Below, one piece after another: positions 13,145 to 58,959 of a DNA stretch of 64,000 nucleotides. The position numbers were made by a program, and so were the translations under genes. This stretch comes from a virus. The notes beneath the pieces are model-generated. The model was given only the letters and a program-made list of their open reading frames with translations. It did no database searches and had not been told where the DNA came from. Location: IMG/VR virus record IMGVR_UViG_3300045988_165705. One strand, given 5' to 3'. The number at the start of each line of letters is the position of its first letter. Positions within the stretch are counted from its first letter, which is position 1.

Positions 13145-13176
13145 ACAAGCCACCTCGCTTTCTGTAGAATTAAAAC

Positions 13177-25743: not shown

Positions 25744-26002
25744 GGCTGGCACGGTACGATTCCGTGGAGTGGTTTCCCACTTAACGCTTAGTCCTTGTAT
25801 TAGTGAAGGTAAGTGAGGGGGCACCCAAAATTCTGAAAGCTTTACAAGGCGTTGGGGACTACGAAAGTGTCCAAGTGTTATGGAAATGCTGCCATGACCA
25901 CGGGATATGATTAAGAAAGTGCATCCTTGGAAGTTGGAGTATTACGGCTATAGCCGTCGGGTGAAACTTCCTCCCGTTATCAACAATGGAAGGGAGCTTA
26001 TC

Positions 26003-29296: not shown

Positions 29297-30109
29297 ATGA
29301 GCAGCAAGATGAACTACATACCATACATATCTTCCTACGAGGATATTCGAGCCGAAATGAGCAACGACTTGCAGTATAGGCTGGCGAACAGGACTGTCAG
29401 AACTTCTCTCGGACGCCCTCTCTATTATCGCATCAATGTCCAGATGATTACGACACAGGAGTGTCCGTTCCACTGCCCCTTCTGCTTGGAACGACAGAAT
29501 CCCATGTCGGGAGACAATGATTTTGATGCACAAATCGAGGCGTTGAGGCGGGTTTTGCTGGAGCATCCCAACGCACGGTTGTCTATCACGGGCGGCGAAC
29601 CCGGCCTTTATCCCAAGCACATCGCCAATATCGTTGAGACTTATCGTAAGAACGGTAATGGTGTGTTTTGTTCCATCAACACTACGGGATTCAGCACGGA
29701 ACTGAATGGGCTGGCGCACATCAACCTTTCCCGCAACGACTATGTCTGGACAGACCCGGCTGGTTTTCCGGGGTGTACTGTCCAAACGATAGTTGAGAAT
29801 CCTACGCTTACTTTTATCAAGGACTACATGAAGATGGATGCCAGCAGCTTTTCTTTTCGGTTCCTGAGCGGCCTTGAAAAGAAAGATTACCCTGTAGATA
29901 TTTGGAATGATTTGCAGCAGGACGCAGATGTCGATGTGCATACATTCAGAATCGGCGATTTCTTTGTGTATGCAACCTTTGACTATGCAGGAAAACACGC
30001 TCGTGTAACACTCGGTGATATGTGGCAGCAGCGTCACAATGATTACGGTGACGGCTATTCCAATATCATCATCCATCCGGATGGCCGTGTGTCCACCAAC
30101 TGGAGATAA
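29297..30109 (+). CDS. radical SAM enzyme (unknown subfamily)
   Basis: 'TTQECPFHCPFCLERQ' (CxxxCxxC) and 'ITGGEP'. 270 aa. GAGGAGGG RBS. Confidence 0.8.
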   Translation: MSSKMNYIPYISSYEDIRAEMSNDLQYRLANRTVRTSLGRPLYYRINVQMITTQECPFHCPFCLERQNPMSGDNDFDAQIEALRRVLLEHPNARLSITGGEPGLYPKHIANIVETYRKNGNGVFCSINTTGFSTELNGLAHINLSRNDYVWTDPAGFPGCTVQTIVENPTLTFIKDYMKMDASSFSFRFLSGLEKKDYPVDIWNDLQQDADVDVHTFRIGDFFVYATFDYAGKHARVTLGDMWQQRHNDYGDGYSNIIIHPDGRVSTNWR

Positions 30110-32134: not shown

Positions 32135-32159
32135 CATTTTTTGATTGGAGGTCTGTGAA

Positions 32160-32819
32160 ATGCCAAACTGTTTGGATAGTATGCCATGGCGTTCCTTAAA
32201 GGGGCTTGGAAAATATGCGGCTGATTTCTTGCAGCTCGGAGATTACCGCAATGTTGTGCTGAAGAACGGTGCGCAGGTTCAGTTTCGCATCATCGGCTTC
32301 AATCACGACAAGACGAGCGACGGTTCTTTGGCTCCTATCTCTTGGGAGATGGTGGATTGTCTGCCTAACACTTACCCCTGGAACAGGCGCGACACCAATG
32401 AAGGGTCGTGGGAAGCAACGCAGATTCGCCATCGGCTCAACGATGCGGATGGCGACATTCATCGTCTGATTCCCGACGAGATTTTGGATGTTGTCACACC
32501 AGTCATTAAGCAGACAGCTGATGTGTACACTGGCGAGAATCGTATTATCGAGACGCTGGACTCTTTCTGGATAAAGTCTGAGAAGGAATTGTATGGACGC
32601 AATATTTACTCCGCTCCCGGTGAGGGACATTGGTACGAGTGGTATCGTCAGGAAGATGTCGCATGGTTTAAGCTCCGCAACGGCAATCCTGAGTACACCA
32701 TGTTGCGTTCTCCTATTTCTGGCGACAGCCGTTTTTTCTGTTGTGTCTACGGCTCCGGCGGCGCCAGCCGTTACTACGCCAGCTACAGTTGTGGCGTCGC
32801 TTTCGGCTTCTGCACTTAA
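32160..32819 (+). CDS. DUF6273-like protein
   Basis: Start set at MPNCLDS (GGAGG 8 nt upstream). Layout 'PISWEMVD...IRHRLND...FWIKSEKELYG...TMLRSP...CGVAFGFCT' matches the family pattern I recall (I.W.VL / WLN / FLLS / WWLRSP / GVRP). Confidence 0.55.
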   Translation: MPNCLDSMPWRSLKGLGKYAADFLQLGDYRNVVLKNGAQVQFRIIGFNHDKTSDGSLAPISWEMVDCLPNTYPWNRRDTNEGSWEATQIRHRLNDADGDIHRLIPDEILDVVTPVIKQTADVYTGENRIIETLDSFWIKSEKELYGRNIYSAPGEGHWYEWYRQEDVAWFKLRNGNPEYTMLRSPISGDSRFFCCVYGSGGASRYYASYSCGVAFGFCT

Positions 32820-33011: not shown

Positions 33012-33410
33012 ATGGCAAAAATCACTATCGCAGGCGACGCAGCTGTCGTAACTTCCGCAATGAAGCTGGAGGACATCAAGACCATTGAGAAGTATCGTCC
33101 CAAGGAGCTGGTTCTCAAGGGTGGCGAGGACGGCAAGGAGCCTATCTTCGCTGTGGGTACCACCAATGGTGCCGGTAACATCAACGCTTTCGGTGCTTCT
33201 TTCGGCGCTGAGACCCGCGACGATGAGAAGCTGGCGTGCATCACCCTGTTCCTCGACGGCGTGACCGGCGATGTTAAGGACTGGGTCGCTGACCGTCTGG
33301 GCGCCGCCATCATCAGCCTCAACAAGCTTGAGGAGAAGCTGCCTGCCGTCCTCGATGAGATTGCGGCTGAGAAGGCAAATGTGCTGAGCAACATCACGGT
33401 CGCTCAGTAA
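33012..33410 (+). CDS. hypothetical protein, first gene of the Ubl/JAB/E1 cassette
   Basis: 132-aa ORF with GAAGGAG RBS. No motif recognised. Confidence 0.7.
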   Translation: MAKITIAGDAAVVTSAMKLEDIKTIEKYRPKELVLKGGEDGKEPIFAVGTTNGAGNINAFGASFGAETRDDEKLACITLFLDGVTGDVKDWVADRLGAAIISLNKLEEKLPAVLDEIAAEKANVLSNITVAQ

Positions 33411-33490
33411 TCACTGGTCGCAAAGGGGCGGCTCATGCCGCCCCCCTTCCGTTCACAACAAAACAAATTTTGAATTAAAGGAGAAACATT

Positions 33491-33718
33491 ATGATTAAGG
33501 TTACTGTTGGCAACAATGTCAAGCGCGAGTCCGTTATCATCGACGAGTCCACCACCCTGCGTGCCTGTCTGGAGGCGAACGGTGTTGACTATACCCGTGG
33601 CGTCATGCACCTCGACGGGTCTTCCCTGAACCCCGGCGACCTCGACAAGACCTTCGCTCAGTTCGGTATCACCGAGAAGTGCTTCCTGCTGAATGTGGTC
33701 AAGGCCGATAACGCCTGA
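33491..33718 (+). CDS. small ubiquitin-like (beta-grasp) protein candidate
   Basis: 75 aa. 'MIKVTVGNNVKRESVIIDESTTLRACLEANGV...' has ThiS/MoaD-like length and pattern but ends ...KADNA with no terminal GG. AAAGGAG RBS. Confidence 0.45.
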   Translation: MIKVTVGNNVKRESVIIDESTTLRACLEANGVDYTRGVMHLDGSSLNPGDLDKTFAQFGITEKCFLLNVVKADNA

Positions 33719-33739
33719 TTCACAAGCAATAGACCAATT

Positions 33740-33765
33740 GAGCCGCCCATTCGGGCGGCTCTTTC
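33740..33765 (+). terminator. rho-independent terminator / attenuator
   Basis: gagccgccc-attc-gggcggctc followed by tttc. Confidence 0.55.
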
Positions 33766-33768
33766 TAT

Positions 33769-33853
33769 GGGGAATTGGCGGAACAGGCAGACGCTGCGGA
33801 CTTAAAATCCGCTGGTGCATACCATATCGGTTCGACTCCGATATTCCCCACCA
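33769..33853 (+). tRNA. tRNA-Leu (TAA)
   Basis: Acceptor GGGGAAT/ATTCCCC, anticodon arm GCGGA-CTTAAAA-TCCGC, variable arm, T arm ATCGG-TTCGACT-CCGAT, CCA. Confidence 0.85.
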
Positions 33854-33880
33854 TATAACAAAATGAATAGAGGTGTTCCT

Positions 33881-35341
33881 ATGTTCAAAACAAGCATTTC
33901 GTCAACGCCGTTTACCACGGAAGCTGCCAATAGCTACTTTACCAACATCACCGGCGGTGCTTTCGGCAACGACTGCTCTTTCCTTGCGACGCTTCGTGCC
34001 TTAGTTGCACCTCGAATCAAAGAGGGAGAGTCCGTCAATCTGCTGTTCGGCTCTTCTGATTATACGGCAGACACGATTCGTAGTGTTCCGGCGGACAGAG
34101 CCGTTTCGGCTATCTGCAACAACTATGATATGAGCGCAACCGGTCAGGTTATTATTCATAGTTTGCGGGCAGACTCGGACAGCAATCTTGCCAACATGAA
34201 AATCATCGCCGACAAGTTTGCCTCTGTGTATGCGGGGTATCATCGCCTCGAAAAGTTCGCAGAGTTCTACCGCAAGTCTTTTGCTGTGGATTGCTACATC
34301 AACCCTGAGCTTAAGAGCGTTATTATCTTTGCGGACAATCTCGACATCCGTAAAATGCATTACTTGCAGGTTTCCATCCTTGCATTCCTGCCGTGGTATC
34401 TGAACCAGCAGGAGGGCATCACCGAGGATGAGCTTGCGTTGGTCAAGTCCCTTCGTGAAAAGAACTCGGAAGAGTATGAACACTGTCTTGCCAAGCTTGC
34501 GGAACGGTATGATTTCCGAACTGCAAGAATCCGTCAATTGCTGAAGGGGTTTGAGACCCGCTACGAGCAGATTGAGTGTGACCGGGTCAGACAGATGATT
34601 CAGAACATCGACCGAGAAATTACCCGTCTGAATGACAACATCGGTGAGCAGTTCACAAAGCGTAACGAACAGTGCATTCGCTTGCTGGGTCTTGAGCAGA
34701 AAGTTGCCGATGGCGGTGAGGACTCCGAAATCATGGAGTACTTCCTGTGCAATACCAAGCTGGTTCTGGAGCGAGTGACCAACACCGATATGTATTTCAC
34801 AGTCAAGGATTGCCTGGAGTATTTCGACCGGGATATGGCGGAGCAAATCATCAATCGTGCTACCAGTTTTGTGTACCGTCCTGATGGTGGTTCCGGCCAC
34901 ACAGGCGCAGCCGCTGAAAAGATGAAGAAGCTGATGACCGAAATCTTTGTCAGCGAGGAGCCGCGTCTGAAAATCCGTGTCTGTGCATCGTATCGCTTTG
35001 ACCTCAATGGTAGTGTTTCTCCGCAGGGACATCGAAGCTTTGGCGCGGAGTACGCTGATTACCTTCCCAATCCCCATATCAACGACTACAACTGCATGGG
35101 CAACTATACCACCACTATCAACAGGCTCCTCAAAAATCACGATTACATCGGTGCTTTGGAGCAGTGTATTGCTTCTTGTAAGAGCCTTAACTGGGGCGAC
35201 TCTGCGGTCATGACTTCGTTTATGCGGTCTATGTGGGGCAACGGCAGCAACAATCGCTGCATTGAACTGCCTGATGGTCGTGTTGTAAAACCCAACGAAG
35301 CCATCACTTGGTTGGAGCAGCAAGCACAGACAAATGAGTAA
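33881..35341 (+). CDS. large cassette protein, possible E2-like C-terminal domain
   Basis: Start set at MFKTSISS (AGAGGTG RBS) because the ORF-track start overlaps the tRNA. 486 aa. The C-terminal 'LPNPHINDYNCMGNY' is reminiscent of the UBC HPN...C loop, which is weak evidence. Confidence 0.6.
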   Translation: MFKTSISSTPFTTEAANSYFTNITGGAFGNDCSFLATLRALVAPRIKEGESVNLLFGSSDYTADTIRSVPADRAVSAICNNYDMSATGQVIIHSLRADSDSNLANMKIIADKFASVYAGYHRLEKFAEFYRKSFAVDCYINPELKSVIIFADNLDIRKMHYLQVSILAFLPWYLNQQEGITEDELALVKSLREKNSEEYEHCLAKLAERYDFRTARIRQLLKGFETRYEQIECDRVRQMIQNIDREITRLNDNIGEQFTKRNEQCIRLLGLEQKVADGGEDSEIMEYFLCNTKLVLERVTNTDMYFTVKDCLEYFDRDMAEQIINRATSFVYRPDGGSGHTGAAAEKMKKLMTEIFVSEEPRLKIRVCASYRFDLNGSVSPQGHRSFGAEYADYLPNPHINDYNCMGNYTTTINRLLKNHDYIGALEQCIASCKSLNWGDSAVMTSFMRSMWGNGSNNRCIELPDGRVVKPNEAITWLEQQAQTNE

Positions 35342-35357
35342 GCGGAGGAGGCGCAAA

Positions 35358-36317
35358 ATGAGTAAACCCATTAAGATGACCGAGCAATACATGGCTGAGT
35401 GCCGTGCAGATTTTGAAAAGGCTTTGCAGCTCACAAAGCTGGCAGATGGGAAACTGTCTTTCACAAAGGTGTTCACCTGTGGTGACAGAAAAGCAACCGT
35501 TTTCTTCACCGCTGGGGCATGGGCAAAGATGGCGCTCCTTATCAAGGAATTCGATAAGGAGGTCGCTTGGCATGGTGTTGCGCATCGTGCAGCCGACGAA
35601 GCCGTAGATGAGTACATCATCGAAGACATCGTGGTTTATCCGCAGGAGGTCTCCGGAACCACGGTTGAGATGGACACTGAGAAGTACGCTGAGTGGTTGA
35701 TGCAGAACGCAGACGATGAGCGCTTCAACAACATTCATATGCAGGGACATTCCCATGTCAATATGCCGACCAGCCCGTCCTCTGTAGACCTTAATCATCA
35801 GGAGGAAATCCTCAATATGCTGGGGGACGATGATTTCTACATCTTCATGATTTGGAACAAGTCGTTTGTCAGTACAAATAAAATCTATGACCTCAAGAAG
35901 AATGTCCTGTTTGAAGATAAGGACATCACCGTCAAGCTTGAGGGTGAACATGAGGGGCTGGCTGAGTTCCTCAAGACCGCCAAAGATATGGTCAAGCAGA
36001 AAAGCTATACCTATGGGAGCTATGGCGGATATAGCGGGTACAGTGGCAACCGCCCACCTTATTCTGTCACCCCCTATAATCCTCTTCCGGACAGCAAAAA
36101 GGATGAGAAAGAAGATAAGGGCGACAAGAAGTCCGATAAGAAGTCTGACGACAAGAAATCGGACAAGAAGTCCGAAAAGGCCGAGAAGCCGCGCACAAGA
36201 ATCGGCGCAGGCTGGCAGGGAAAGAATGCCTGTCAGCAGTCCATGTGGGACGAAGATGACGATGATTCTGTGTACCCCTACGGCGGCTACAGCGACCAGT
36301 ATCTTGGAGGTGAATGA
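35358..36317 (+). CDS. JAB/MPN (JAMM) metalloprotease-domain protein
   Basis: 'VYPQEVSG' (Glu) and 'HMQGHSHVNMPTSPSSVD' (HxHx7SxxD). Start set at MSKPIK, after GGAGGAGG. Lys/Asp/Ser-rich tail ending YLGGE. Confidence 0.8.
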   Translation: MSKPIKMTEQYMAECRADFEKALQLTKLADGKLSFTKVFTCGDRKATVFFTAGAWAKMALLIKEFDKEVAWHGVAHRAADEAVDEYIIEDIVVYPQEVSGTTVEMDTEKYAEWLMQNADDERFNNIHMQGHSHVNMPTSPSSVDLNHQEEILNMLGDDDFYIFMIWNKSFVSTNKIYDLKKNVLFEDKDITVKLEGEHEGLAEFLKTAKDMVKQKSYTYGSYGGYSGYSGNRPPYSVTPYNPLPDSKKDEKEDKGDKKSDKKSDDKKSDKKSEKAEKPRTRIGAGWQGKNACQQSMWDEDDDDSVYPYGGYSDQYLGGE

Positions 36318-36319
36318 TA

Positions 36320-36997
36320 ATGGCAATGGATTTGTCCAAAAGCTACGAGTATTTCCAGCCTGAAAAGGTAGAGGCTCGCATCAATATCGTCGGATGCGGT
36401 TCTGTCGGCGCAACGCTGGCAGAGAACCTTGTCCGTCTTGGCATTACCAATCTCGCTCTGTGGGATATGGATGTCGTGAATCCGCATAATCTGGCAAATC
36501 AGATTTTCCGTCAGCAGGATATTGGCCGCCCCAAGGTGGAAGCATTGGCAGATATCCTGTTTGAAATCAATCCTGAAATCAAGGATGACCTCAAGCTTTA
36601 TGCCAAGGGGTGGAGCGGGCAGCAGCTCTCCGGATATGTCTTCCTTTGCGTAGACAATATCGAACTGCGCCGCCAGATTGTTGAAAAGCACTTCGACAAT
36701 CCCTATGTCAAAGCGATGCTGGATTTCCGCACTCTGCTGGAATCTGCGCAGCATTATGCTGCTGACTGGTCTGACTACAAGATGAAGAAAGACCTGCTGA
36801 ACTCCATGAGCTTCAGTCATGAAGAAGCAGCCGAGGAAACGCCAGTCTCCGCTTGCGGCATTACGCTGGGTGTCGCCCCCACCGTCAGAGCTATCTGCGC
36901 ACTTGGCGTTGCCAACTTTGTCAACTTCATTCGTGGAAAAGGATTGAAAAAGCTTATCATTCTGGATGCGTTCAACTTTATGTTGGACGCTTTTTAA
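36320..36997 (+). CDS. ThiF/MoeB/E1-like adenylyltransferase (minimal)
   Basis: 'INIVGCGSVGATLAENLVRLG' (GxGxxG Rossmann) and 'WDMDVVNPHNLANQIF'. Overlaps the JAB gene stop. Confidence 0.8.
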   Translation: MAMDLSKSYEYFQPEKVEARINIVGCGSVGATLAENLVRLGITNLALWDMDVVNPHNLANQIFRQQDIGRPKVEALADILFEINPEIKDDLKLYAKGWSGQQLSGYVFLCVDNIELRRQIVEKHFDNPYVKAMLDFRTLLESAQHYAADWSDYKMKKDLLNSMSFSHEEAAEETPVSACGITLGVAPTVRAICALGVANFVNFIRGKGLKKLIILDAFNFMLDAF

Positions 36998-37031: not shown

Positions 37032-37841
37032 ATGGATACTACCGTCGAACGCCTTAAGGTCGGGACACCGGTCATCATTGGTTCTTACGGTGTCAACAAC
37101 GATGAGCCGCACCCTGTTGTTTGGCTGAAAGGTAGTCCAAACTGCGATTTTATCACCGAGTGCGCCGTGGATTATCTTTGCTTTGATGCACCGGAAAGAA
37201 CTGGAGACGGCAGGTGCAATCTTGGCAATCCCGACTATCGTCTGTCCAATATTCATACATACCTAAACAGCGACAGAGACGATTGGTTTCGCAAAACTCA
37301 TGAAGCAGATGCCCCTCCGAATAATGTTTTCAGCAACCGAGCACAAAGCTATCGCAACCATTATGGGTTTCTATATTTCTTTGAAGATTATGAACTCGAT
37401 AGCTTGCAGATGCAGCAGTATGTGGTTGATGGTGAGACGCTCAGTTCCATCATTCGACTTCCTACTATCACCGATATCCTTGATGACCAGTTGAAGCTGA
37501 AGCTGTTTTCCAAGAAGGGTATTCGTCCCAAAGCAACAGAAGACTGTGCTGATAAAAAAGGCCGGTTTGGTAATTTCAGTTGGGAGTCTTACATGAACTT
37601 CTGGTTGGCAGGCAAGCAGGATGAATTCAGAGGCTATGCTTTGACTCTTAGTAGGTCTGGGTATTGTGAGAGGAAATATCCCCGTGACTGTGCGGGGCTT
37701 AGGCCGATGTGCCGGTTGAAACCGGAAACAGTGGTAGAGGTTGATGAAAACGGCGTAGCCCACATCAAACCATACGCATTGAAAAACGAAACCTGCACAG
37801 ATGCAGAACTGTTCGAGCTATTAGGTGTGGCGCAGCCTTAA
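37032..37841 (+). CDS. DUF6273-like protein (divergent paralog)
   Basis: 'PVVWLKGS', 'SNIHTYLNS', 'NFWLAG' and 'CAGLRPMCRL' follow the same layout as 32160..32819. AAAGGAGGG RBS. Confidence 0.5.
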   Translation: MDTTVERLKVGTPVIIGSYGVNNDEPHPVVWLKGSPNCDFITECAVDYLCFDAPERTGDGRCNLGNPDYRLSNIHTYLNSDRDDWFRKTHEADAPPNNVFSNRAQSYRNHYGFLYFFEDYELDSLQMQQYVVDGETLSSIIRLPTITDILDDQLKLKLFSKKGIRPKATEDCADKKGRFGNFSWESYMNFWLAGKQDEFRGYALTLSRSGYCERKYPRDCAGLRPMCRLKPETVVEVDENGVAHIKPYALKNETCTDAELFELLGVAQP

Positions 37842-37853: not shown

Positions 37854-38177
37854 AACTGTAACGAATTACCCTTTTCGGGGGCTTCACGCCAAAGGCTGAA
37901 GTAACAAATTGTCGGGGAGGAAAACACCGCCTGCCCAGAAGGGTAACCAGCGACTCCTCCGGAGTCATCAGGTGCTTTGGACATCCACCAGGAAACCAAC
38001 AGCCGGAATAGCACAGCAGACCTGGCTTGTCAAGTCCTATCCTTCACAAAACCCACCCAAATCACGACAATTATCCTCAACTCAACTAAAAAGATACAGG
38101 CAAATGCAGCTCACTCAGCTCGCTGCAGATGAGCTTCTTTTGATTCAAACGCAGCAACACTCATGTAGGTTACAGTT
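37854..38177 (+). ncRNA. structured RNA module A (retron msr-msd-like layout)
   Basis: Closing helix aactgtaac/gttacagtt. G follows the 5' strand. Hairpin ccc-ttttc-ggg. Hairpin cttca-CGCCAAAGGC-tgaag, then TAACAAATTGTCGGGGA. TGTAGGTT precedes the 3' strand. No ORF. Confidence 0.55.
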
Positions 38178-38204
38178 ACGACTATGAAAAGGAGGCATAG
38201 GGCG

Positions 38205-39341
38205 ATGGTATATATCACGGTCATGCAATCCCCGATTTATCACCAAATGACACTGGAAGAGTTCCTCTTTCAAAACTTCCAAGCGCCAACCATATTAAAC
38301 ACAAATGTTTCTAATACACGAACCTATGCATATGAAACGGTAAGTGAGCATTTCACAAGCCGCATTGATACGAACGCTCTTATCTGCAAACTGGTGCGCT
38401 TTAATGAGCAAACGGAGGCGCTTCGCGCACAGGAACGCAGTACTTTGTATGAAACATTCCACATCCCCAAAAAGTCTGGTGGTTTGCGTCGTATTGATGC
38501 TCCTAAACCGGAGCTGATGAACGCATTGCGGAATCTCAAGACTATTTTTGAAGAAGATTTCCATGCATTGTATCACACTTCTGCATTCGCCTATGTAAAA
38601 AACAGATGTACGGTTGATGCGGTCAAGCGCCATCAGAAAAACAACAGCAAATGGTTCGGCAAGCTGGATTTGCACGATTTCTTTGGTAGCACCACGCTGG
38701 ATTATGTTATCAAAATGTTTTCTATGGTGTTCCCATTCAGCGAAATCGTAAAGTTTCCCAACGGCGAGGCAGAGTTGCGGAAGGCCTTGGATTTGGCTTT
38801 TCTCAATGGAGGTCTGCCGCAGGGAACTCCACTTTCTCCGCTGATTACCAATGTGATGATGATTCCTGTTGACTATAAGCTTGCCAATGCATTCCGTGAT
38901 TTTGACAAGCAGCGGTTCATTTACACCAGATATGCCGATGACTTCATCATTTCGTCTAAGGTTGATTTCGATGTGCATCGTGTAGAAAAACTCGTGGTGG
39001 ATACGCTGCATGAATTTGGAGCGCCGTTCACCATCAACGAAAGCAAAACGAGATACGGCTCTTCCGCAGGTCGTAACTGGAATCTTGGTGTTATGCTCAA
39101 CAAGGACAATGAAATTACTGTCGGCCATAAGAAGAAGCGCCAGTTCCAGTCCATGCTTTACAACTACATTACCGATAAACGCAAGGGCATCTCGTGGCCG
39201 AGAGAAGATGTGCAAACTATGCAGGGCTTACATAGCTACTATCGCATGGTAGAGCCGGAGACTATCGATGCCATCGTGAAGCACACCAACGAAAAAATGG
39301 AGACAGATGTCCTGCGGCTTATCAAAGACGATTTAAGATAA
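38205..39341 (+). CDS. reverse transcriptase (stand-alone; retron/DRT/Abi-like, not assigned)
   Basis: 'FHIPKKSGGLRRIDAP', 'LPQGTPLSPLITN', 'YTRYADDFIIS', 'NLGVMLN'. No maturase or endonuclease extension. Alternative start at ATG 38184. Confidence 0.85.
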   Translation: MVYITVMQSPIYHQMTLEEFLFQNFQAPTILNTNVSNTRTYAYETVSEHFTSRIDTNALICKLVRFNEQTEALRAQERSTLYETFHIPKKSGGLRRIDAPKPELMNALRNLKTIFEEDFHALYHTSAFAYVKNRCTVDAVKRHQKNNSKWFGKLDLHDFFGSTTLDYVIKMFSMVFPFSEIVKFPNGEAELRKALDLAFLNGGLPQGTPLSPLITNVMMIPVDYKLANAFRDFDKQRFIYTRYADDFIISSKVDFDVHRVEKLVVDTLHEFGAPFTINESKTRYGSSAGRNWNLGVMLNKDNEITVGHKKKRQFQSMLYNYITDKRKGISWPREDVQTMQGLHSYYRMVEPETIDAIVKHTNEKMETDVLRLIKDDLR

Positions 39342-39372: not shown

Positions 39373-39646
39373 TTCCTGTAATGGATAATTGCGAAAGCAA
39401 TGCTTATCGCCAAAGGCATAAGTAACAACTTGCTGGGAAGGAACACCCCGCCTCTTCCTGAAGACCGGCTGCCGACGCGGCTGCGACCCAATCGGGCTCG
39501 GCATCAAGCATGGAAAATAGAGTCAACGGTCATTGCGGCACAATGAATCCCACACCAGCAGAGAATTAAAATAGGAACTAACCGCACCTGCAATGCGCTC
39601 CAGGCGCCTCGCATCCGGCACGCTTATCCTATGTAGATTACAGGAA
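39373..39646 (+). ncRNA. structured RNA module B
   Basis: Closing helix ttcctgtaat/attacaggaa. GG follows the 5' strand. Hairpin ttgc-gaaa-gcaa. Hairpin cttat-CGCCAAAGGC-ataag, then TAACAACTTGCTGGGAA. TGTAGATT precedes the 3' strand. Confidence 0.55.
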
Positions 39647-39654
39647 CACCAAAA

Positions 39655-39959
39655 TCATTTGCAATGAATAACATCCCGAAAGGAATGTGCTTTGCGCCAA
39701 AGGCCAAAGTAACAATTTGTTGGGAAAGCAAAGGCCGCCCGCCACGAAGGCGGAACGAAGGTTCAGGACTCATCGCCGAAGAGATACACCTCGGTAGAAA
39801 CCGAGCAGCAAAAGCACGAGATATAGCAAGGTCGATAAACCACTGAGCCACAGGCGCTTCCCCACATTACCAAATTCCCGTGGAAACCACCGACCCGAGC
39901 AGCCGGGCCGTCGTCCGGTACCGGTCTCCAGGTACACGCTCCGTGTAGATTGCAAATGA
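39655..39959 (+). ncRNA. structured RNA module C
   Basis: Closing helix tcatttgcaat/attgcaaatga. G follows the 5' strand. Hairpin tcc-cgaaa-gga. Hairpin ctttg-CGCCAAAGGC-caaag, then TAACAATTTGTTGGGAA. TGTAGATT precedes the 3' strand. Confidence 0.55.
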
Positions 39960-39977
39960 AGAAAGGAATCAGATTCC

Positions 39978-40679: not shown

Positions 40680-41061
40680 ACGCTACAAATTACAGACAGG
40701 ATGCCGACCTCTCAAATGGCGGAGACCGATGCGCTGTAAGGTCATGCGGGGTGCAAATCCCCGCCATCTGCGCTACCGGCATGGCATTGCCGTGGGAAGG
40801 ACATAATGTTTCTCCAGAATTATGCCGGTGTGCCGACACATAGAAAGCGGCTGGGCAATGCGGAGCCTGTAGAGACAAAATCCGTAGAATATTGAAGCGG
40901 CAGGCGTTCCGTCATGCGTTTACCGTGGAGTTCCAAAGGGTTGTGCGTATTCCTCAAGGCGGATAGGTGAGAGCCAAAAGAAAACGCACTGCAGATACAG
41001 ACCTGCGTTACCAAAGGTGTCGCGCTGGCAGACCGCAAGTTCGCAATAGTCTGCCACTTAT

Positions 41062-42878: not shown

Positions 42879-44084
42879 ATGCTTGAGCTTCAGGGAAAAT
42901 ACGCTTCGGCAAAAGTGTTTACCGATGTGGTCGATAACGAATCCATTTCTCAGGTCATCAATCTCTTGAACCAGCCCTATGTCGAAGGTAGCCAGGTTCG
43001 CATGATGCCGGACATTCATGCCGGTGCTGGCTGCACCATTGGAACCACCATGACTATCAAGGATAAGATTTGCCCAAACCTTGTTGGCGTTGACATTGGA
43101 TGCGGCATGGAAACCATCCGCCTGAAGGAGACCTACATCGAGCCGCAAAAGTTGGACAAGGTTATCCGTGAGGGCATTCCGTCTGGTTTTTCAATTCGTT
43201 CCGTCCCGCATCGTTACGCAAAGGAAATCGATTTATCGCAGCTGTGCTGCGCGAAGAAGGTCAATACCGACCGTGCCTATCATAGCATTGGTACTTTGGG
43301 CGGCGGCAATCATTTTATTGAGGCGAACAAGGACGATGATGGGAACATCTATATCGTTGTCCACTCCGGCAGCCGTCATCTGGGTTTAGAAATCGCCAAC
43401 TTCTATCAGGAGGCTGCTTTCAGGGCACTGACCTCTTATAGCCACGAAGAGATTGAGGCGGCTATTGAACAGCTGAAAGCGGATGGCCGCCAGAAAGAGA
43501 TTCAAGCGGTGCTGAAGTCCATGAAATCCAAGCGTTCACCCGTTCCCAAACCGCTTGCATATGTGAATGGTGAGCTCTTTGAGCAGTATCTTCATGATAT
43601 GAAAATTGCACAGCGTTTTGCTGAGCTGAACCGGCAGGCGATGATGGATACCATTGTCAAAGGAATGGGATTCCATGTGATTGAGCAATTTACAACGATT
43701 CACAACTACATTGATGTGGATAACATGATTTTGCGTAAGGGTTCTGTGTCTGCACAAACCGGTGAGCGTCTGTTGATTCCCATCAATATGCGTGATGGCA
43801 GCCTGCTTTGCACCGGCAAGGGCAATCCGGATTGGAACTTCTCCGCTCCTCATGGTGCCGGTCGGCTGATGAGCCGCAGCGCTGCAAAAGAAGCTTTCAC
43901 TGTATCCGAATTCAAAAAGCAGATGGCGGGTATCTACACGACATCTGTTGGGCACAGCACGCTGGATGAATGCCCGATGGCCTATAAGGGCATGGATGAT
44001 ATTGTCGGTAATATCGAGCCAGCTGTAACCGTCGATGCCATTATCAAGCCCATTTATAATTTCAAGGCGGGTGATGAAGATTGA
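42879..44084 (+). CDS. rtcB: RtcB RNA 3'-phosphate/5'-OH ligase
   Basis: 'MPDIHAGAGC', 'GGGNHFIE', 'HSGSRHLG', 'PHGAGR'. 401 aa. Confidence 0.9.
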   Translation: MLELQGKYASAKVFTDVVDNESISQVINLLNQPYVEGSQVRMMPDIHAGAGCTIGTTMTIKDKICPNLVGVDIGCGMETIRLKETYIEPQKLDKVIREGIPSGFSIRSVPHRYAKEIDLSQLCCAKKVNTDRAYHSIGTLGGGNHFIEANKDDDGNIYIVVHSGSRHLGLEIANFYQEAAFRALTSYSHEEIEAAIEQLKADGRQKEIQAVLKSMKSKRSPVPKPLAYVNGELFEQYLHDMKIAQRFAELNRQAMMDTIVKGMGFHVIEQFTTIHNYIDVDNMILRKGSVSAQTGERLLIPINMRDGSLLCTGKGNPDWNFSAPHGAGRLMSRSAAKEAFTVSEFKKQMAGIYTTSVGHSTLDECPMAYKGMDDIVGNIEPAVTVDAIIKPIYNFKAGDED

Positions 44085-45373
44085 TTGCTGCAACGCCGCT
44101 GTCAGATTCTATCGTAAAATTACGCTGTTTGCAGGAAGCGAGCGGCTCCATAAGAAAGACCCAGCTATTACGGGAGTTCCAAGATGATGCGAACTTCCGT
44201 ATTTTTTTATATTACGCGCTCAACCCGATGCTCACCTATAAGATTTCGGAGCAGACGCTTCGCTCCACTGTCCGGTATGATTCAACCATTACACTGACAA
44301 TGACAGACATCTTTTCTGTCTGCGAGCTGCTGTCCAAGAGAAAGGCATTGGATGCCGGTACGGTGTATCAGGTTTGCGCATTCGTGCAGAGCGCCCCGCT
44401 GGATGAAGCTGATGTTTATATCAAGCTTCTTTCAAAGACACTCCGGCTGGGCGTAACGGCAAAGACCGTGAACAAGGTTATCCCCAATCTGATTCCGGAG
44501 TGGGAGGTTCAGCAGGCATATCCCATTGATAAGTATCCGCTGAAAGAGAACACAGAATTTTGGCTGACACAAAAGCTAAACGGCGTTCGGGCGACCTATT
44601 ACAAAGGCAGACTGTACGCAAGAAGCGGAGTCCCCTATGAAGGACTTGACCATATTCTGGATGCTCTCTGTTTTGATGAAGAGGATAGCTATGTATTCGA
44701 CGGCGAGCTGACTCTTCGTGAGAAGGGCAGCCTCTCAGATAATGAGGCGTTCCGCAAAGCCACCGGTATTATCAACTCGGATGATGGTGATAAAACGGTG
44801 ATTTGCTACACGATTTTTGATGTTCTGACGGTCGAAGAGTTCCACCGTGGGCAAAGCGACGGCAATTACGGCTACCGCCGTGCTTTCTTAGACCAGCTTC
44901 ACCGCTTCATTCCGCAAGATGGCCGGGTCAGCATCCTGCCGGTTTTGTATCATGGAAAAGACCAGAGCAAAATCAGTGAACTGCTGGAGCAAATGGTTCG
45001 TGAGGATAAAGAGGGGCTGATGGTCAACCTTGATGTTCCCTATCAGTGCAGACGACACAACGGAATCCTGAAGGTCAAACGCTTTTACACGATGGACTTA
45101 CGCATTCTCCGCTGCGAAGAAGGCGGCGGAAGATTGGCAGGGACTTTGGGTGCGTTTGTACTCGACTATAAGGGGAATGAAGTCAAGGTCGGCTCCGGGT
45201 TCACCGATGAGCAGCGGGCAACATTCTGGCAAGGAAAAGATGACCTGCCGGGTTTGCTCTGCGAAGTAAAGTACAAGGAAATATCCAGTGATAAAAACAC
45301 CGGTGCTGAGAGTCTTCAGTTCCCGGTGTTTATTTCTATCCGAACCGATAAAACCGAAGTCAGCTTCGGATAA
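44081..45373 (+). CDS. ATP-dependent DNA (or nucleic-acid) ligase
   Basis: Nucleotidyltransferase motifs 'TQKLNGVR' (motif I Lys), 'FDGEL', 'KEGLMV', 'ILKVK'. Overlaps the rtcB stop. Confidence 0.75.
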   Translation: MIAATPLSDSIVKLRCLQEASGSIRKTQLLREFQDDANFRIFLYYALNPMLTYKISEQTLRSTVRYDSTITLTMTDIFSVCELLSKRKALDAGTVYQVCAFVQSAPLDEADVYIKLLSKTLRLGVTAKTVNKVIPNLIPEWEVQQAYPIDKYPLKENTEFWLTQKLNGVRATYYKGRLYARSGVPYEGLDHILDALCFDEEDSYVFDGELTLREKGSLSDNEAFRKATGIINSDDGDKTVICYTIFDVLTVEEFHRGQSDGNYGYRRAFLDQLHRFIPQDGRVSILPVLYHGKDQSKISELLEQMVREDKEGLMVNLDVPYQCRRHNGILKVKRFYTMDLRILRCEEGGGRLAGTLGAFVLDYKGNEVKVGSGFTDEQRATFWQGKDDLPGLLCEVKYKEISSDKNTGAESLQFPVFISIRTDKTEVSFG

Positions 45374-45392
45374 ATCAGAGAGGAGGTCTTGC

Positions 45393-46850: not shown

Positions 46851-46866
46851 TAAGCACTAAGGAGGA

Positions 46867-47660: not shown

Positions 47661-47676
47661 TTAGGAGGAAAGTTTC

Positions 47677-58949: not shown

Positions 58950-58959
58950 GGAGGACTTT

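What the first reader, a model, noticed from the sequence alone, without database searches (positions are those of the whole stretch)
33012..36997. Phage-borne ubiquitin-like conjugation cassette: small beta-grasp candidate, large protein with E2-like motif, JAB protease, minimal E1
The cassette has five co-directional genes, interrupted only by a tRNA-Leu. They are a 132-aa protein, a 75-aa ThiS/MoaD-sized protein, and a 486-aa protein whose C-terminus carries 'NPHINDYNCMG' (compare the UBC HPN...Cys loop). The last two are a JAMM protease with an intact E...HxHx7SxxD motif and a ~225-aa ThiF/E1 Rossmann protein. The composition and order parallel the uncharacterised PRTRC (ParB-related, ThiF-related) cassettes of proteobacterial plasmids. 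They also recall the Bil/CBASS-type bacterial Ubl systems that act in anti-phage defence. Here the cassette is on the phage side, in a Firmicute-type genome, and no ParB is visible in the window. The Ubl candidate ends in ...KADNA rather than GG. The JAB protein ends in a low-complexity Lys/Asp/Ser tail terminating in YLGGE. The actual conjugated tail, and whether processing is needed, are therefore open questions.
Basis: partly seen in the sequence, partly recalled or inferred. Interest (0 to 1): 0.78.

Follow-up and report, generated by a model that had tools for sequence, protein, structure and literature searches.

The report
Phage-encoded ubiquitin-like protein system
A large family of ~110-130 kb gut Clostridia phages carries a conserved module with a ubiquitin-fold protein, a minimal E1 activating enzyme and a JAMM protease, plus two proteins with no match in any library searched. 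The ubiquitin-like protein ends in Asn-Ala instead of Gly-Gly and is sometimes encoded as a cleavable fusion, as ubiquitin genes are in eukaryotes.

Summary
The five ORFs, the tRNA-Leu and the quoted motifs are at the stated coordinates.

- **p75** folds as a ubiquitin/SUMO/NEDD8-like beta-grasp (AF2 pLDDT 90). All top-50 Foldseek PDB hits are Ub-family, prob 1.0.
- **The 227-aa protein** is a ThiF/E1 adenylation domain.
- **The 327-aa protein** has an invariant E...HxHx7SxxD JAMM site.
- **The 486-aa protein** gave no UBC/E2 match by any method, despite a confident model. Its PNxHI...C motif is conserved, but E2 homology is unproven.
- **PRTRC membership** is not met.

New evidence:
- The block p132-Ubl-p486-JAB-E1 plus a retron-type RT is syntenic in more than 130 loci (p486 down to 27% identity).
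- The Ubl is the slowest-evolving member.
- It always ends (D/T/A)-N-A, followed by 0-9 variable residues.
- In several lineages it is encoded only as an in-frame Ubl-p132 fusion (junction ...DNA|A), sometimes in tandem.

So the C-terminus must be freed by cleavage. This parallels eukaryotic Ub-fusion genes and the Type I Bub Ubl-E2 fusion cut by a JAB domain.

Best reading (about 0.55): a new variant of Ubl maturation, activation and conjugation, encoded by the phage itself. The target, the roles of p132 and p486, and the biological purpose are inferred, not shown.

The parts
33012..33410 (+). p132: conserved 132-aa partner of the Ubl, with no match to any known family. It has no invariant Cys or His. 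Ser15 and Thr78 are >=97% Ser/Thr, and KYRP, G61, F64, D94, G97 and E107 are conserved. In other lineages it is translated as the C-terminal half of a Ubl-p132 fusion.
33491..33718 (+). p75: ubiquitin-fold (beta-grasp) protein with an invariant C-terminal ...K-x-D-N-A. It is the most conserved gene of the block.
   Evidence: AF2 pLDDT 89.7. Foldseek PDB top 50 are all ubiquitin/SUMO/NEDD8, prob 1.0, TM up to 0.72. There are 1512 homologue clusters. C-termini.
33740..33761 (+). GC-rich terminator-like hairpin directly after p75. It is conserved in position, but with different sequences, across the family. This suggests p132-p75 is a separate, strongly expressed unit.
33769..33853 (+). tRNA-Leu(taa). 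It is an incidental insertion between p75 and p486 and is absent in distant relatives.
33881..35341 (+). p486: two-domain protein joined by a 53-residue helix. Its fold has no PDB match. C368, P396, H399, C405 and G407 are invariant (motif PNxHI...C at nt 35063-35107). It is a candidate Cys-dependent transferase, ligase or effector. E2 homology is unproven.
35334..36317 (+). JAMM/MPN+ metallopeptidase. E76 is >=90% conserved; H139, H141, S149 and D152 are invariant. The C-terminal tail is low-complexity and acidic/aromatic. The probable true start is Met9 at 35358. The ORF overlaps p486 at its start and E1 at its end.
36314..36997 (+). Minimal E1/ThiF adenylation domain (227 aa). GCGSVG, N59, K74, D114 and Cys181 in the crossover loop are invariant. 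Asn62 replaces the canonical Arg of the NLxRQ motif. There are no CxxC zinc pairs, no catalytic-Cys domain and no rhodanese domain.
36968..36990 (+). Terminator-like hairpin at the 3' end of the E1 gene.
38184..39341 (+). Retron-clade reverse transcriptase. It follows the E1 gene in essentially every locus, including the most distant ones. Genetic linkage is shown; functional linkage is inferred.
37855..38180 (+). Structured RNA unit 1 upstream of the RT. It contains the hairpin CTTNN-CGCCAAAGGC-NNAAG with a covarying stem, and is closed by a long-range stem.
39373..39960 (+). Structured RNA units 2 and 3 downstream of the RT (about 39373-39650 and 39655-39960), of the same design as unit 1.

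Best explanation
This is a phage-encoded ubiquitin-like maturation, activation and conjugation module.

Proposed steps:
1. p75 is a ubiquitin-fold modifier whose reactive end is the conserved ...Asp-Asn-Ala. Depending on lineage it is made free, with a short variable tail, or as an in-frame Ubl-p132 fusion. The fusion is sometimes repeated in tandem.
2. The JAMM peptidase cuts after Ala75 to expose the carboxylate. It probably also reverses conjugates.
3. The minimal E1, presumably a homodimer like ThiF/MoeB, adenylates that carboxylate. It may carry it as a thioester on the invariant crossover-loop Cys181.
4. The Ubl is then passed to an amino group on a target with the help of p486 (invariant Cys405/His399) and/or p132. 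p132 is either a Cys-less E2 analogue of the BubB type or the main substrate or partner.

Shown here:
- the Ub fold
- E1 family membership
- an intact JAMM site
- the strict co-inheritance of the genes
- the extreme conservation of the Ubl
- the conserved NA end with variable tails and natural fusions

Inferred:
- that JAB is the processing enzyme
- that adenylation and transfer occur
- which protein is the transferase
- what the target is
- the biological purpose
For: - **Ub fold.** AF2 pLDDT 89.7. All top-50 Foldseek PDB hits are ubiquitin, SUMO, NEDD8 or UBL domains at prob 1.0.
- **E1.** Pfam ThiF 6e-24. The family profile best matches the active adenylation domain of Uba1 (1.5e-18), then UBA5, MoeB, ThiF, MccB and Cap2. 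The Gly loop, N59, K74, D114 and C181 are invariant.
- **JAB.** HxHx7SxxD is invariant and E76 is >=90% conserved. The profile hits Rpn11 at E=0.004, aligned on the motif. PADLOC JAB scores 4.7e-4.
- **Co-inheritance.** The order is the same in 62+16 loci and in 68 of 70 RT-anchored loci. The block is kept in MT835544, where the flanking genes differ.
- **Ubl conservation.** At 34% p486 identity the Ubl is still 81-84% identical, against E1 64%, JAB 53% and p132 50%.
- **C-terminus.** It is always (D/T/A)NA, followed by 0-9 variable residues in a minority.
- **Natural fusions.** Ubl(1-75)|p132(Ala2-) occurs in L165-168 (5 contigs, at least 4 samples). In L160, L161 and L163 the fusion is the only copy of either gene in the locus. 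L134 has two tandem fusions plus a tailed Ubl. E1 and JAB are retained in all of them.
- **Precedent.** In Type I Bub, the JAB domain of BubCD cleaves a Ubl-E2 fusion (PMC11601596). BilC removes the Ala after Gly97 of BilA (PMC10557695).
- **Operon layout.** There is a terminator after p132-p75, and p486/JAB/E1 overlap.
Against: - No recognisable E2. p486 has no UBC match by sequence or by Foldseek.
- The Ubl lacks the C-terminal Gly of every characterised Ubl or sulfur carrier.
- The E1 has Asn in place of the canonical ATP-binding Arg of NLxRQ. It also has no obvious Arg finger, so its chemistry may differ.
- JAMM enzymes are known to cut after Gly. Cleavage after Asn-Ala would be a new specificity.
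- No target, and no experimental evidence for any conjugate.
- Gene co-inheritance within one syntenic phage family is weaker evidence of functional coupling than co-occurrence across unrelated contexts. Only MT835544-type loci show changed flanks.
Confidence: 0.55

Rival explanations
1. Sulfur-carrier system. E1 adenylates p75, and a persulfide (for example from the phage NifS-like cysteine desulfurase) converts it to a thiocarboxylate. That thiocarboxylate donates sulfur for thiolation of the phage's tRNAs or of a cofactor. JAB only trims the carrier, as QbsD and Mec+ do.
For: - The E1 is ThiF/MoeB-sized and lacks a catalytic-Cys domain. The top NCBIfam hits are ThiF models, all below cut-off.
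- JAB plus Ubl plus E1 triads are known in sulfur pathways (Iyer 2006, PMC1779556; CysO/Mec+ and QbsE/QbsD from my own knowledge).
- The window encodes a NifS/IscS-like cysteine desulfurase at 59829-61031.
- It also encodes 12 tRNAs, including Lys(ttt) and Glu(ttc), and a tRNA repair module.
Against: - There is no C-terminal Gly-Gly, which all known sulfur carriers have.
- No PP-loop thiouridylase, ThiG/ThiH, MoaE or rhodanese gene is in the cassette or in the ORFs scanned across the 64 kb window.
- The desulfurase lies 23 kb away, among RNA-repair genes.
- The p75 model matches ubiquitin/SUMO/NEDD8 rather than ThiS/MoaD in all top-50 hits.
- Whole-surface hyper-conservation of p75 and its fusion to p132 fit a protein modifier better.
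Confidence: 0.12
2. Prophage-borne antiphage (superinfection-exclusion) system. This is a rival about role, and it is compatible with the conjugation mechanism. Like Bil, Bub and CBASS-II, the Ubl machinery would be a defence effector. Here it would be coupled to the adjacent retron-type RT and its RNAs as the sensor arm.
For: - All characterised bacterial Ubl-conjugation operons act in or are associated with antiphage immunity (PMC11601596, PMC10557695).
- The RT is retron-clade. It is locked to the cassette in 68 of 70 loci and in the distant MT835544.
- The phage has integrases, so lysogeny is plausible.
- Retrons on prophages are well known (my own knowledge).
Against: - The block behaves as a core, vertically inherited part of a very diverse phage family (p486 27-99% identity, same position). 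Defence morons usually sit in variable hot spots instead.
- No PADLOC system model matches beyond the generic E1, JAB and RT domains.
- No known retron type has E1/JAB/Ubl effectors (my own knowledge of the Mestre 2020 classification; not checked here).
Confidence: 0.22
3. Non-conjugating C-terminal chemistry. The E1 performs an MccB-, PaaA- or TcdA-like reaction on the Asn-Ala end. Candidates are nucleotidylation, cyclisation, or ligation to a small molecule or to the RT's nucleic-acid product. The Ub fold would merely serve as the scaffold or carrier.
For: - The unusual conserved Asn next to the C-terminus recalls MccA, whose C-terminal Asn is the MccB substrate (my own knowledge).
- MccB, PaaA and TcdA are among the E1 profile hits.
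- The E1 active site deviates from the canonical form (Asn62 for Arg).
- No E2 was found.
Against: - The conserved terminal residue is Ala, not Asn.
- The E1 lacks the MccB peptide-clamp domain and the Zn site.
- The best profile hits are Uba1, UBA5 and MoeB rather than MccB.
- A 75-residue, hyper-conserved Ub fold, a JAMM peptidase and Ub-style fusion genes are the hallmarks of protein modifiers.
Confidence: 0.07
4. Member of the PRTRC (ParB-related, ThiF-related) cassette family, as the first reader suggested by analogy.
For: The content is superficially similar (small protein, JAB-like, ThiF-like). PRTRC_ThiF gives a weak hit at E=4e-6.
Against: - PRTRC_ThiF scores 26.3 bits against a cut-off of 144.75 and ranks 17th among the E1 models.
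- No PRTRC A-F model hits any of the other four proteins at E<=1.
- No ParB is present.
- The host is a phage of Clostridia, not a proteobacterial plasmid.
Confidence: 0.03

Closest known systems
Type I Bub (6E.1) operons: BubAB (Ubl-E2 fusion), BubCD (JAB-E1 fusion), BubE (PMC11601596)
   Same: - The Ubl is encoded as an N-terminal fusion to a ~133-aa partner and must be cut out. In Bub the JAB domain does this.
- JAB and E1 are in the same order. They are fused in Bub; here they are adjacent and overlap by 4 nt.
- The E1 is a single adenylation domain without a catalytic-Cys domain.
- The partner protein lacks a catalytic Cys.
   Different: - The Bub Ubl ends in Gly, the phage Ubl in Asn-Ala.
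- BubB is a demonstrated diverged UBC fold with a Ser/His/Asp site. p132 has no invariant His and its fold is unknown.
- No DUF6527 (BubE) is present.
- The phage block has an extra 486-aa protein and a retron-type RT.
- Bub operons are sparse chromosomal systems with defence-type regulators. This block is a core gene set of a phage family.
- The E1 keeps an invariant crossover-loop Cys.
BilABCD (Bacterial ISG15-like) systems (PMC10557695)
   Same: Both have a Ubl, a JAB and an E1. The JAB pre-processes the Ubl by removing residues after the reactive residue: E. aridi BilA ends Gly97-Ala98 and is cut between them. Variable tails follow a conserved C-terminal motif.
   Different: - BilD is a large IAD-AAD-CYS E1 with Zn. 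Here the E1 is a 227-aa single domain.
- BilB is a recognisable E2. None is recognisable here.
- The reactive residue is Gly in Bil. Here the conserved end is Asn-Ala and the Ala itself is conserved.
- Bil is a host defence system against phage. This is phage-encoded.
Eukaryotic ubiquitin genes (Ub-ribosomal protein fusions, and polyubiquitin with an extra C-terminal residue). This comparison rests on my own knowledge.
   Same: The modifier is encoded as head-to-tail fusions with another protein, in tandem copies, or with a short blocking tail. All of these need a peptidase to expose the C-terminus. The modifier is extremely conserved relative to its enzymes.
   Different: The end is Asn-Ala rather than Gly-Gly. 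The fusion partner is p132, not a ribosomal protein. The processing enzyme would be a JAMM peptidase, not a Cys DUB. Most family members, including this window, encode the Ubl unfused.
Type II CBASS Cap2 (E2-E1) / Cap3 (JAB)
   Same: The Rossmann part of the E1 scores best against PADLOC Cap2 E1-E2 models. A JAB partner is present. My recollection is that Cap2 substrates need not end in Gly-Gly.
   Different: There is no CD-NTase, and no E2 domain fused to the E1. A separate Ub-fold modifier exists here, whereas in CBASS the CD-NTase itself is conjugated.
Other phage E1+JAB pairs: Bacteroides phage crAss001 gp77 (JAMM) + gp76 (ThiF), and ThiF-like genes of Xanthomonas jumbo phages
   Same: A JAMM gene lies directly upstream of a ThiF-like gene in a phage. 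The E1s share the NLxNQ variant: the Xanthomonas phage ThiF is included in alignment A9.
   Different: Only the E1 is detectably homologous (26-29% identity). No p75, p132 or p486 homologue is detectable next to them by sequence. In the records, those genes are annotated only as 'thiamine biosynthesis protein' and 'metalloprotease domain containing protein'.
Lambda/T1 tail-assembly Ubl (TAPI) with the JAB-NlpC protein TAPK (Iyer et al. 2006, PMC1779556)
   Same: It is a phage-encoded beta-grasp protein associated with a JAB peptidase that is predicted to cut it out.
   Different: It has no E1, sits in the tail-assembly module, and has a conserved C-terminal Gly. Here an E1 is present and the block lies among tRNA and RNA-repair genes, far from the structural genes.
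PRTRC cassettes
   Same: Both are small-protein, JAB-like and ThiF-like gene sets on a mobile element.
   Different: No model of the family is matched. There is no ParB, and the host range and element type differ.

Membership tests
Ubiquitin-like beta-grasp modifiers | Beta-grasp (ubiquitin) fold | tested here: met
   AF2 pLDDT 89.7, pTM 0.74. The Foldseek PDB top 50 are all Ub/SUMO/NEDD8/UBL, prob 1.0, TM 0.55-0.72.
Ubiquitin-like beta-grasp modifiers | C-terminal Gly or Gly-Gly as the reactive end | tested here: not met
   The invariant end is (D/T/A)-N-A in all 74 distinct genes examined and in the top hits of the 1512-cluster search.
Ubiquitin-like beta-grasp modifiers | Conserved C-terminal motif followed by dispensable or variable residues or fusion partners (precursor form) | tested here: met
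   Tails seen: A, R, AA, NA, NVK, TSK, LAA, HQ, ANS, HPLSAVKA, KVDLKKK. In-frame fusions to p132 also occur.
E1 / ThiF adenylating enzymes | ThiF-family Rossmann domain above the curated threshold, with Gly-rich loop and Mg-binding Asp | tested here: met
   Pfam ThiF scores 84.9 bits against 28.1. GCGSVG and D114 are invariant. The profile hits Uba1 at 1.5e-18.
E1 / ThiF adenylating enzymes | Canonical ATP-binding Arg of the NLxRQ motif | tested here: not met
   The motif is NLANQ with an invariant Asn62, aligned to NLNRQ of Uba1.
E1 / ThiF adenylating enzymes | Catalytic Cys (crossover loop or CYS domain) for thioester formation | tested here: inconclusive
   Cys181 in PVSAC is invariant in 16 sequences, including a Xanthomonas phage ThiF. 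Its position fits the ThiF Cys184 / MoeB Cys187 region by my reading. No structure or assay is available.
JAB/JAMM/MPN+ metallopeptidases | E...HxHx7SxxD metal and catalytic motif | tested here: met
   E76 is >=90% conserved. H139, H141, S149 and D152 are invariant. The alignment to Rpn11 lies over the motif, E=0.004.
JAB/JAMM/MPN+ metallopeptidases | Score above the Pfam Prok-JAB gathering threshold | tested here: not met
   13.0 bits against a cut-off of 25. PADLOC JAB scores 18.3 bits, E=4.7e-4.
UBC / E2 conjugating enzymes (for p486) | Sequence match to UQ_con, Prok-E2_A-E or PADLOC E2 models | tested here: not met
   No hit for the window protein or for any of the 44 family members. The profile against PDB gives none. 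hhalign against three E2s gives prob 0.2%. The same set-up also misses p75 against ubiquitin, so the hhalign negative carries little weight.
UBC / E2 conjugating enzymes (for p486) | UBC fold | tested here: inconclusive
   Foldseek with the pLDDT-89 model against 350,542 PDB chains found no hit with E<0.5 and no E2 among the 50 listed. The C-terminal domain's order of secondary-structure elements (helix, 2+2 strands, PN loop, Cys, helices) is compatible with a UBC-like topology. The domain could not be searched on its own.
UBC / E2 conjugating enzymes (for p486) | HPN...Cys active-site motif | tested here: inconclusive
   P396, N397, H399 and C405 are invariant in 56 sequences, with the same N-to-C spacing (8) as in UBE2D2. 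The His is displaced, and N397 is Gln in MT835544.
UBC / E2 (Bub BubB-like, for p132) | Diverged UBC fold with an invariant Ser (+His/Asp or Lys/His) | not testable with these tools
By sequence there is no PDB or Pfam hit. S15 and T78 are >=97% Ser/Thr and there is no invariant His. Only the size (132 against 133 aa) and the Ubl fusion are parallel.
PRTRC system | Matches to NCBIfam/TIGRFAM PRTRC A-F, PRTRC_ThiF and PRTRC ParB models | tested here: not met
   Only PRTRC_ThiF hits, at 26.3 bits against 144.75. There are no A-F hits at E<=1. No ParB was seen.
BilABCD | E1 with IAD-AAD-CYS architecture, UBC E2, and a Ubl with a conserved C-terminal Gly | tested here: not met
   The E1 is a single 227-aa domain. 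No E2 is detectable. The Ubl ends in NA. Definition taken from PMC11601596 section 5.
Type II CBASS | CD-NTase plus Cap2 (E2-E1 fusion) plus Cap3 | tested here: not met
   No CD-NTase model hit was found. The E1 matches only the Rossmann part of the Cap2 models, residues 20-90.
ThiS/MoaD-type sulfur-carrier systems | Gly-Gly C-terminus and a cognate sulfur-acceptor enzyme gene (ThiG, MoaE, TtuA/NcsA, CysM and the like) nearby | tested here: not met
   The Ubl ends in NA. None of these families appears among about 45 ORFs scanned over the 64-kb window. A NifS-like gene lies 23 kb away.
Retrons (for the linked RT) | Retron-clade RT above the family cut-off, with an adjacent msr/msd ncRNA | tested here: inconclusive
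   retron_St85_RT scores 177.8 bits against a cut-off of 235. PADLOC RT_II-A scores 160.7 bits. Three structured RNA units with a covarying hairpin flank the RT. No Rfam family covers them. msDNA production cannot be tested here.

The most novel reading that the evidence does not exclude
This would be an independent, virus-encoded lineage of ubiquitination-like machinery. It would use a true ubiquitin-fold modifier with an Asn-Ala rather than a Gly reactive end. The modifier would be produced from ubiquitin-style fusion and tandem precursor genes, then matured by a JAMM peptidase with a new cleavage specificity. A minimal E1 would activate it, and a non-UBC enzyme would conjugate it: p486 through Cys405, or a Cys-less p132. 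The whole module would be genetically locked to a retron-type reverse transcriptase and inherited as a core function of a large family of gut Clostridia phages, rather than as a host defence island.
Probability: 0.28. Interest if true: 0.88.

Novelty: new variant of a known kind. Interest (0 to 1): 0.72.

Why it matters
All characterised prokaryotic ubiquitination-like pathways (CBASS-II, Bil, Bub) are host systems studied as antiphage defences. Here the same logic (Ubl, E1, JAMM) sits in the phage and is conserved across thousands of gut phage genomes. The modifier is as constrained relative to its enzymes as ubiquitin is.

Why the details matter:
- The non-glycine end and the missing recognisable E2 suggest chemistry or enzymes not yet described.
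- The ubiquitin-style fusion and tandem genes show that precursor architecture arose, or was kept, outside eukaryotes.
- The system gives a concrete, testable entry point. The natural fusion is a ready-made JAB substrate.
- One relative is recorded under Acutalibacter muris, a species that I recall is cultivable.
- Possible functions to test are modification of phage or host proteins, superinfection exclusion, or counter-defence against host Bil/CBASS systems.
- The tight linkage with a retron-type RT and repeated structured RNAs is unexplained. No such pairing turned up in the paper searches made here.

Tried and rejected
1. **PRTRC membership.** Rejected by the NCBIfam scan.
2. **p486 as a canonical E2.**
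   - Pfam, NCBIfam, PADLOC and PHROGs gave nothing.
   - The single sequence and the profile against PDB gave nothing.
   - Foldseek against PDB gave nothing.
   - Foldseek against BFVD gave one uncharacterised Siphoviridae protein.
   - hhalign against typed UBE2D2/UBE2I/UBE2N gave nothing. That set-up also fails on p75 against ubiquitin, so it is uninformative.
3. **p486 N-domain as a nucleotidyltransferase.** Weak Foldseek hits to TUTases and CCA enzymes (prob about 0.1) were dismissed. There is no GS...DxD motif among the invariant residues.
4. **p486 as a PP-loop thiouridylase.** The ITGG...D...S stretch is not a conserved SGGxDS motif.
5. **A Cys cluster in p486 (C405, C429, C433, C460).** C429 and C433 are lost in MT835544 and C433 in other homologues.
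6. **p132 as a second beta-grasp or as an E2.** hhalign and PDB profile searches were negative.
7. **YLGGE tail of JAB as a Ubl-like end.** It is not conserved.
8. **DGR hypothesis for the RT and the DUF6273-like neighbours.** No TR/VR repeat was found, and the RT is retron-clade.
9. **A second copy of p132/p75 in the window.** None was found. It exists in L001-L003.
10. **Search for distant p486 relatives with known domains.** The profile search of 1.8 billion representatives found 2167 clusters. The 150 listed are all full-length close family members, so no new domain information came from it.
11. **Literature.** Six full-text searches found no description of this phage cassette. The library is limited to open-access papers and bioRxiv.

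Full report
**Observation**

- p132, 33012-33410
- p75, 33491-33718, ending KADNA
- p486, 33881-35341
- a 327-aa protein, 35334-36317
- a 227-aa protein, 36314-36997

ARAGORN and Rfam both find tRNA-Leu(taa) at 33769-33853. The quoted strings are present. LPNPHINDYNCMGNY is at p486 residues 395-409. HSHVNMPTSPSSVD is at residues 139-152 of the 327-aa protein. p486/JAB overlap by 8 nt and JAB/E1 by 4 nt.

**The element is a phage**

The window carries a large terminase, two tyrosine integrases and an RdRP-family polymerase-like protein. It also has 12 tRNAs and an RNA-repair set: RtcB, RNA ligase, a Thg1-like protein, RlaP and a CCA-adding enzyme. Near-identical sequence occurs on IMG/VR contigs of about 116 kb. 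Related MAG contigs are labelled Oscillospiraceae, Acutalibacteraceae, Ruminococcus and Clostridia.

**What each protein is**

*E1.* The 227-aa protein is an E1/ThiF adenylation domain.
- Pfam ThiF scores 84.9 bits against a cut-off of 28.1.
- The best PADLOC models are Cap2 E1-E2, but only over the Rossmann part.
- A family profile best matches the active adenylation domain of Uba1 (1.5e-18), then UBA5, MoeB, UBA6/7, ThiF, MccB, TcdA and Cap2.
- No named NCBIfam subfamily reaches its cut-off.
- GCGSVG, N59, K74, D114 and Cys181 in the crossover loop are invariant.
- The canonical Arg of NLxRQ is an invariant Asn (NLANQ). There are no CxxC zinc pairs.

*JAB.* The 327-aa protein scores weakly against JAB models (Pfam 13 bits; PADLOC 4.7e-4). 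Its E76...H139-x-H141-x7-S149-xx-D152 motif is conserved throughout the family. A profile aligns that motif to Rpn11 at E=0.004.

*p75.* It has no sequence match to anything known. An AlphaFold2 model built on 30 homologues is confident (pLDDT 89.7). All of its top-50 Foldseek hits in the PDB are ubiquitin, SUMO, NEDD8 or UBL domains, with probability 1.0 and TM up to 0.72. The beta-grasp prediction is therefore confirmed. The fold looks closer to eukaryotic-type Ubls than to ThiS/MoaD.

*p486.* Its model is also confident (pLDDT 89.1). It has an N-terminal alpha/beta domain, a 53-residue helix and a C-terminal alpha/beta domain.
- Foldseek finds nothing in the PDB at E<0.5.
- In BFVD it finds only one uncharacterised Siphoviridae protein.
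- No Pfam, NCBIfam, PADLOC or PHROG model, and in particular no UQ_con or Prok-E2 model, hits the window protein or any of 44 homologues.
- P396, N397, H399, C405 and C368 are invariant in 56 sequences. The Asn-to-Cys spacing equals that of UBE2D2. The order of secondary-structure elements is compatible with a UBC-like layout.
- The His is displaced and the Asn is Gln in a distant homologue.

I therefore treat 'E2-like' as an unproven hypothesis. p486 is clearly an enzyme-like protein with a conserved Cys/His site. It belongs to a very large unannotated family: 2167 clusters at 50% identity.

*p132.* It matches nothing.

**Conservation of the block**

Searching IMG/VR with p486 gave 62 loci. 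Searching species-representative genomes gave 16 more. In every locus long enough to show them, the genes occur in this order: p227up, (p224up), p132, Ubl, p486, JAB, E1, (p269dn), RT, (metallophosphatase).

Anchoring on the RT instead gave a less biased sample. Of 70 loci with enough upstream sequence, 68 carry all five genes. One exception is truncated. In the other the Ubl is present but too diverged for tblastn.

GenBank MT835544 is a distant phage, with p486 27% and Ubl 56% identical. It keeps p141-Ubl-p491-JAB-E1-RT while the flanking genes differ. So the six-gene block, not just the phage backbone, is the conserved unit.

The Ubl evolves far more slowly than its neighbours. Where p486 is 34% identical, the Ubl is 81-84%, E1 64%, JAB 53% and p132 50%. 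This is the pattern expected of a modifier that must fit many partners.

A GC-rich terminator-like hairpin follows the Ubl gene in nearly all loci, with different sequences. This suggests p132-Ubl is a separate, abundant transcript, and p486-JAB-E1 a translationally coupled enzyme operon. The tRNA is incidental, being absent in distant relatives.

**The C-terminus and the fusions**

In 74 distinct Ubl genes the body always ends (D/T/A)-Asn-Ala. One apparently truncated allele ends ...KAD instead. About a quarter carry 1-9 further, non-conserved residues: A, R, AA, NA, NVK, TSK, LAA, HQ, ANS, HPLSAVKA and KVDLKKK.

In several lineages the Ubl is fused in frame, with no linker, to p132 starting at its Ala2.
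- **P0450.** Found on five contigs from at least four samples (L165-L168). A diverged free p132 paralogue lies upstream.
- **L160, L161 and L163.** The fusion is the only copy of either gene in the locus.
- **L134.** Two tandem fusion genes are followed by a third Ubl with an AA tail.

E1, JAB, p486 and the RT are retained in all of these. In the fusion-only lineages the E1 can have a substrate only if the Ubl is cut out after Ala75. This is inference, but strong inference. The co-inherited JAMM peptidase is the obvious candidate.

There are three parallels.
- **Eukaryotic ubiquitin genes.** These include Ub-ribosomal protein fusions and polyubiquitin with a blocking residue (established knowledge).
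- **Type I Bub operons.** The Ubl is fused to a 133-aa diverged E2 (BubB). The JAB domain of the JAB-E1 fusion BubCD releases it (PMC11601596).
- **E. aridi BilA.** Its terminal Ala is removed by the JAB BilC (PMC10557695).

The Bub parallel makes p132 a candidate Cys-less E2. It is 132 aa, has no invariant Cys or His, and has Ser15 and Thr78 at >=97% Ser/Thr. It could equally be the principal substrate or a stoichiometric partner.

**Mechanism proposed (confidence about 0.55)**

1. The JAMM peptidase matures the Ubl at ...DNA|.
2. The E1 adenylates the Ala75 carboxylate, possibly forming a thioester on Cys181.
3. The Ubl is transferred to a target amine with the help of p486 (Cys405/His399) and/or p132.
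4. JAB reverses the reaction.

The steps shown and the steps inferred are listed under the best explanation.

Points against this model:
- There is no recognisable E2.
- The end is non-glycine.
- The E1 has a deviant ATP site (Asn62).
- The JAMM specificity would be unprecedented.
- There are no experimental data.

**Rivals**

*Sulfur carrier (0.12).* It is consistent with a ThiF-sized E1, a JAB, and a NifS-like desulfurase at 59829-61031. Against it are the lack of Gly-Gly, the absence of any acceptor enzyme among about 45 scanned ORFs, and the Ub-like rather than ThiS-like fold matches.

*Non-protein C-terminal chemistry of the MccB type (0.07).* The conserved residue next to the end is Asn, but the terminal residue is Ala, and the E1 lacks MccB's accessory features.

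*PRTRC membership (0.03).* Rejected.

*Biological role.* This is a separate question. The block could be a prophage-borne defence module coupled to the retron-type RT (about 0.22, and compatible with conjugation). It could instead be a core function of the phage's own cycle. The second is favoured by its vertical, family-wide conservation. Neither is tested.

**Comparison with known systems and novelty**

The block works like the Bil and Bub Ubl-E1-JAB systems. It fails their membership tests on E1 architecture, E2, the C-terminal Gly and DUF6527.

Other phages have adjacent JAMM and ThiF genes. An example is crAss001 gp77/gp76. These are annotated only generically, and no Ubl is recognisable next to them by sequence.

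Six full-text searches found no description of this cassette, within the limits of the library.

I classify it as a new variant of a known kind: prokaryotic and viral ubiquitination-like systems. Its distinctive features:
- It is encoded by the phage itself.
- The Ubl ends in Asn-Ala.
- The precursor genes are ubiquitin-style fusions.
- The E1 is minimal and deviant.
- There are two partner proteins with no match in any sequence library searched.
- It is linked to a retron-type RT.

**Limits**

- The p132 fold, and the p486 C-domain on its own, could not be searched structurally.
- Foldseek lists only 50 hits, so a weak UBC match lower down cannot be excluded.
- My hhalign tests lack power.
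- Most co-occurrence evidence comes from one broad, syntenic phage family.

Noticed in passing
window 38184-39341 (+), with RNA units at about 37855-38180, 39373-39650 and 39655-39960: A retron-clade reverse transcriptase follows the E1 gene in essentially all loci. It scores 178 bits on NCBIfam retron_St85_RT (cut-off 235) and 161 bits on PADLOC RT_II-A. It is flanked by three ~300-nt structured RNA units. Each contains a hairpin CTTNN-CGCCAAAGGC-NNAAG whose outer stem covaries between copies and between phages, and each is closed by a long-range CUGUAAU...AUUACAG stem. No Rfam family covers them.
   Followed up: partly
L134 467-2159; L160/L161 1735-2349; L163 2136-2750; L165 3744-4869: Natural in-frame Ubl-p132 fusion genes occur in these loci. 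They appear singly, in tandem, or beside a free p132 paralogue. In these lineages the order is Ubl then p132, the reverse of the gene order in the window.
   Followed up: yes
L001 9017-9831 and 17166-17980 (also L002, L003): In the element recorded under Acutalibacter muris, the p132-Ubl gene pair is duplicated 8149 bp downstream, after the RT and the metallophosphatase. The two copies are identical at the protein level (DNA 99-100% over the 300 nt reported).
   Followed up: partly
window 36488-36502 (E1 residues 59-63): The E1 motif NLxRQ reads NLANQ. The Asn is invariant in the family and in a Xanthomonas jumbo-phage ThiF. This suggests a phage-specific E1 subgroup with an altered ATP site.
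   Followed up: partly
window 23582-23652, 23829-23963, 25747-25875, 40887-40992 (+): Rfam hits above gathering score to RAGATH-16, RAGATH-4, RAGATH-36 and drum RNAs. These are structured RNAs of unknown function.
   Followed up: no
window 42879-48762 and 57856-63662 (+): A large tRNA/RNA repair and maturation set accompanies the 12 tRNA genes: RtcB, an ATP-dependent DNA ligase, an RNA ligase, a Thg1-like guanylyltransferase, RlaP and a CCA-adding enzyme.
   Followed up: no
window 59829-61031 (+): A NifS/IscS-like cysteine desulfurase (NCBIfam FeS_nifS 390 bits, below its cut-off) sits among the RNA-repair genes. It was considered as a possible sulfur donor for the Ubl, but it lies 23 kb away and no acceptor enzyme was found.
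   Followed up: partly
window 16020-18560 (-): An 846-aa protein matches Pfam RdRP (PF05183, 2.4e-14), the eukaryotic-type RNA-dependent RNA polymerase family. It may be a phage single-subunit RNA polymerase.
   Followed up: no
window 29297-30109 (+): A radical-SAM protein with a CxxxCxxC motif gives weak matches to viperin-family models (PADLOC pVip 6.6e-8; NCBIfam viperin_w_prok 30 bits, far below its cut-off).
   Followed up: no
window 32145-32819 and 37032-37841 (+): Two unannotated proteins flank the cassette. The homologue of the upstream one in L165 carries a precomputed Pfam DUF6273 hit. Its Cys/Tyr/Gly-rich C-terminus looked like a DGR target, but no template/variable repeat was found.
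   Followed up: partly
window 12113-13189 (-) and 20495-21322 (-): There are two tyrosine integrase genes. In the 20-28 kb region both strands carry long mirrored ORFs, so gene calls there are uncertain.
   Followed up: no
L084 (Bacteroides phage crAss001 gp75-gp79) and L085 (Xanthomonas phage PhiXhv-12): crAss001 gp77 has a perfect JAMM motif (HSHNNMATFFSGTD) and lies directly upstream of the ThiF-like gp76, next to replication genes. Xanthomonas and Erwinia jumbo phages encode a 227-aa ThiF 28-29% identical to this E1. Both are annotated only as 'thiamine biosynthesis protein'.
   Followed up: partly
window 35334-35357: The annotated JAB start overlaps p486. Residues 1-8 are not conserved, while Met9 (35358) is invariant. 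The real start is probably Met9.
   Followed up: partly
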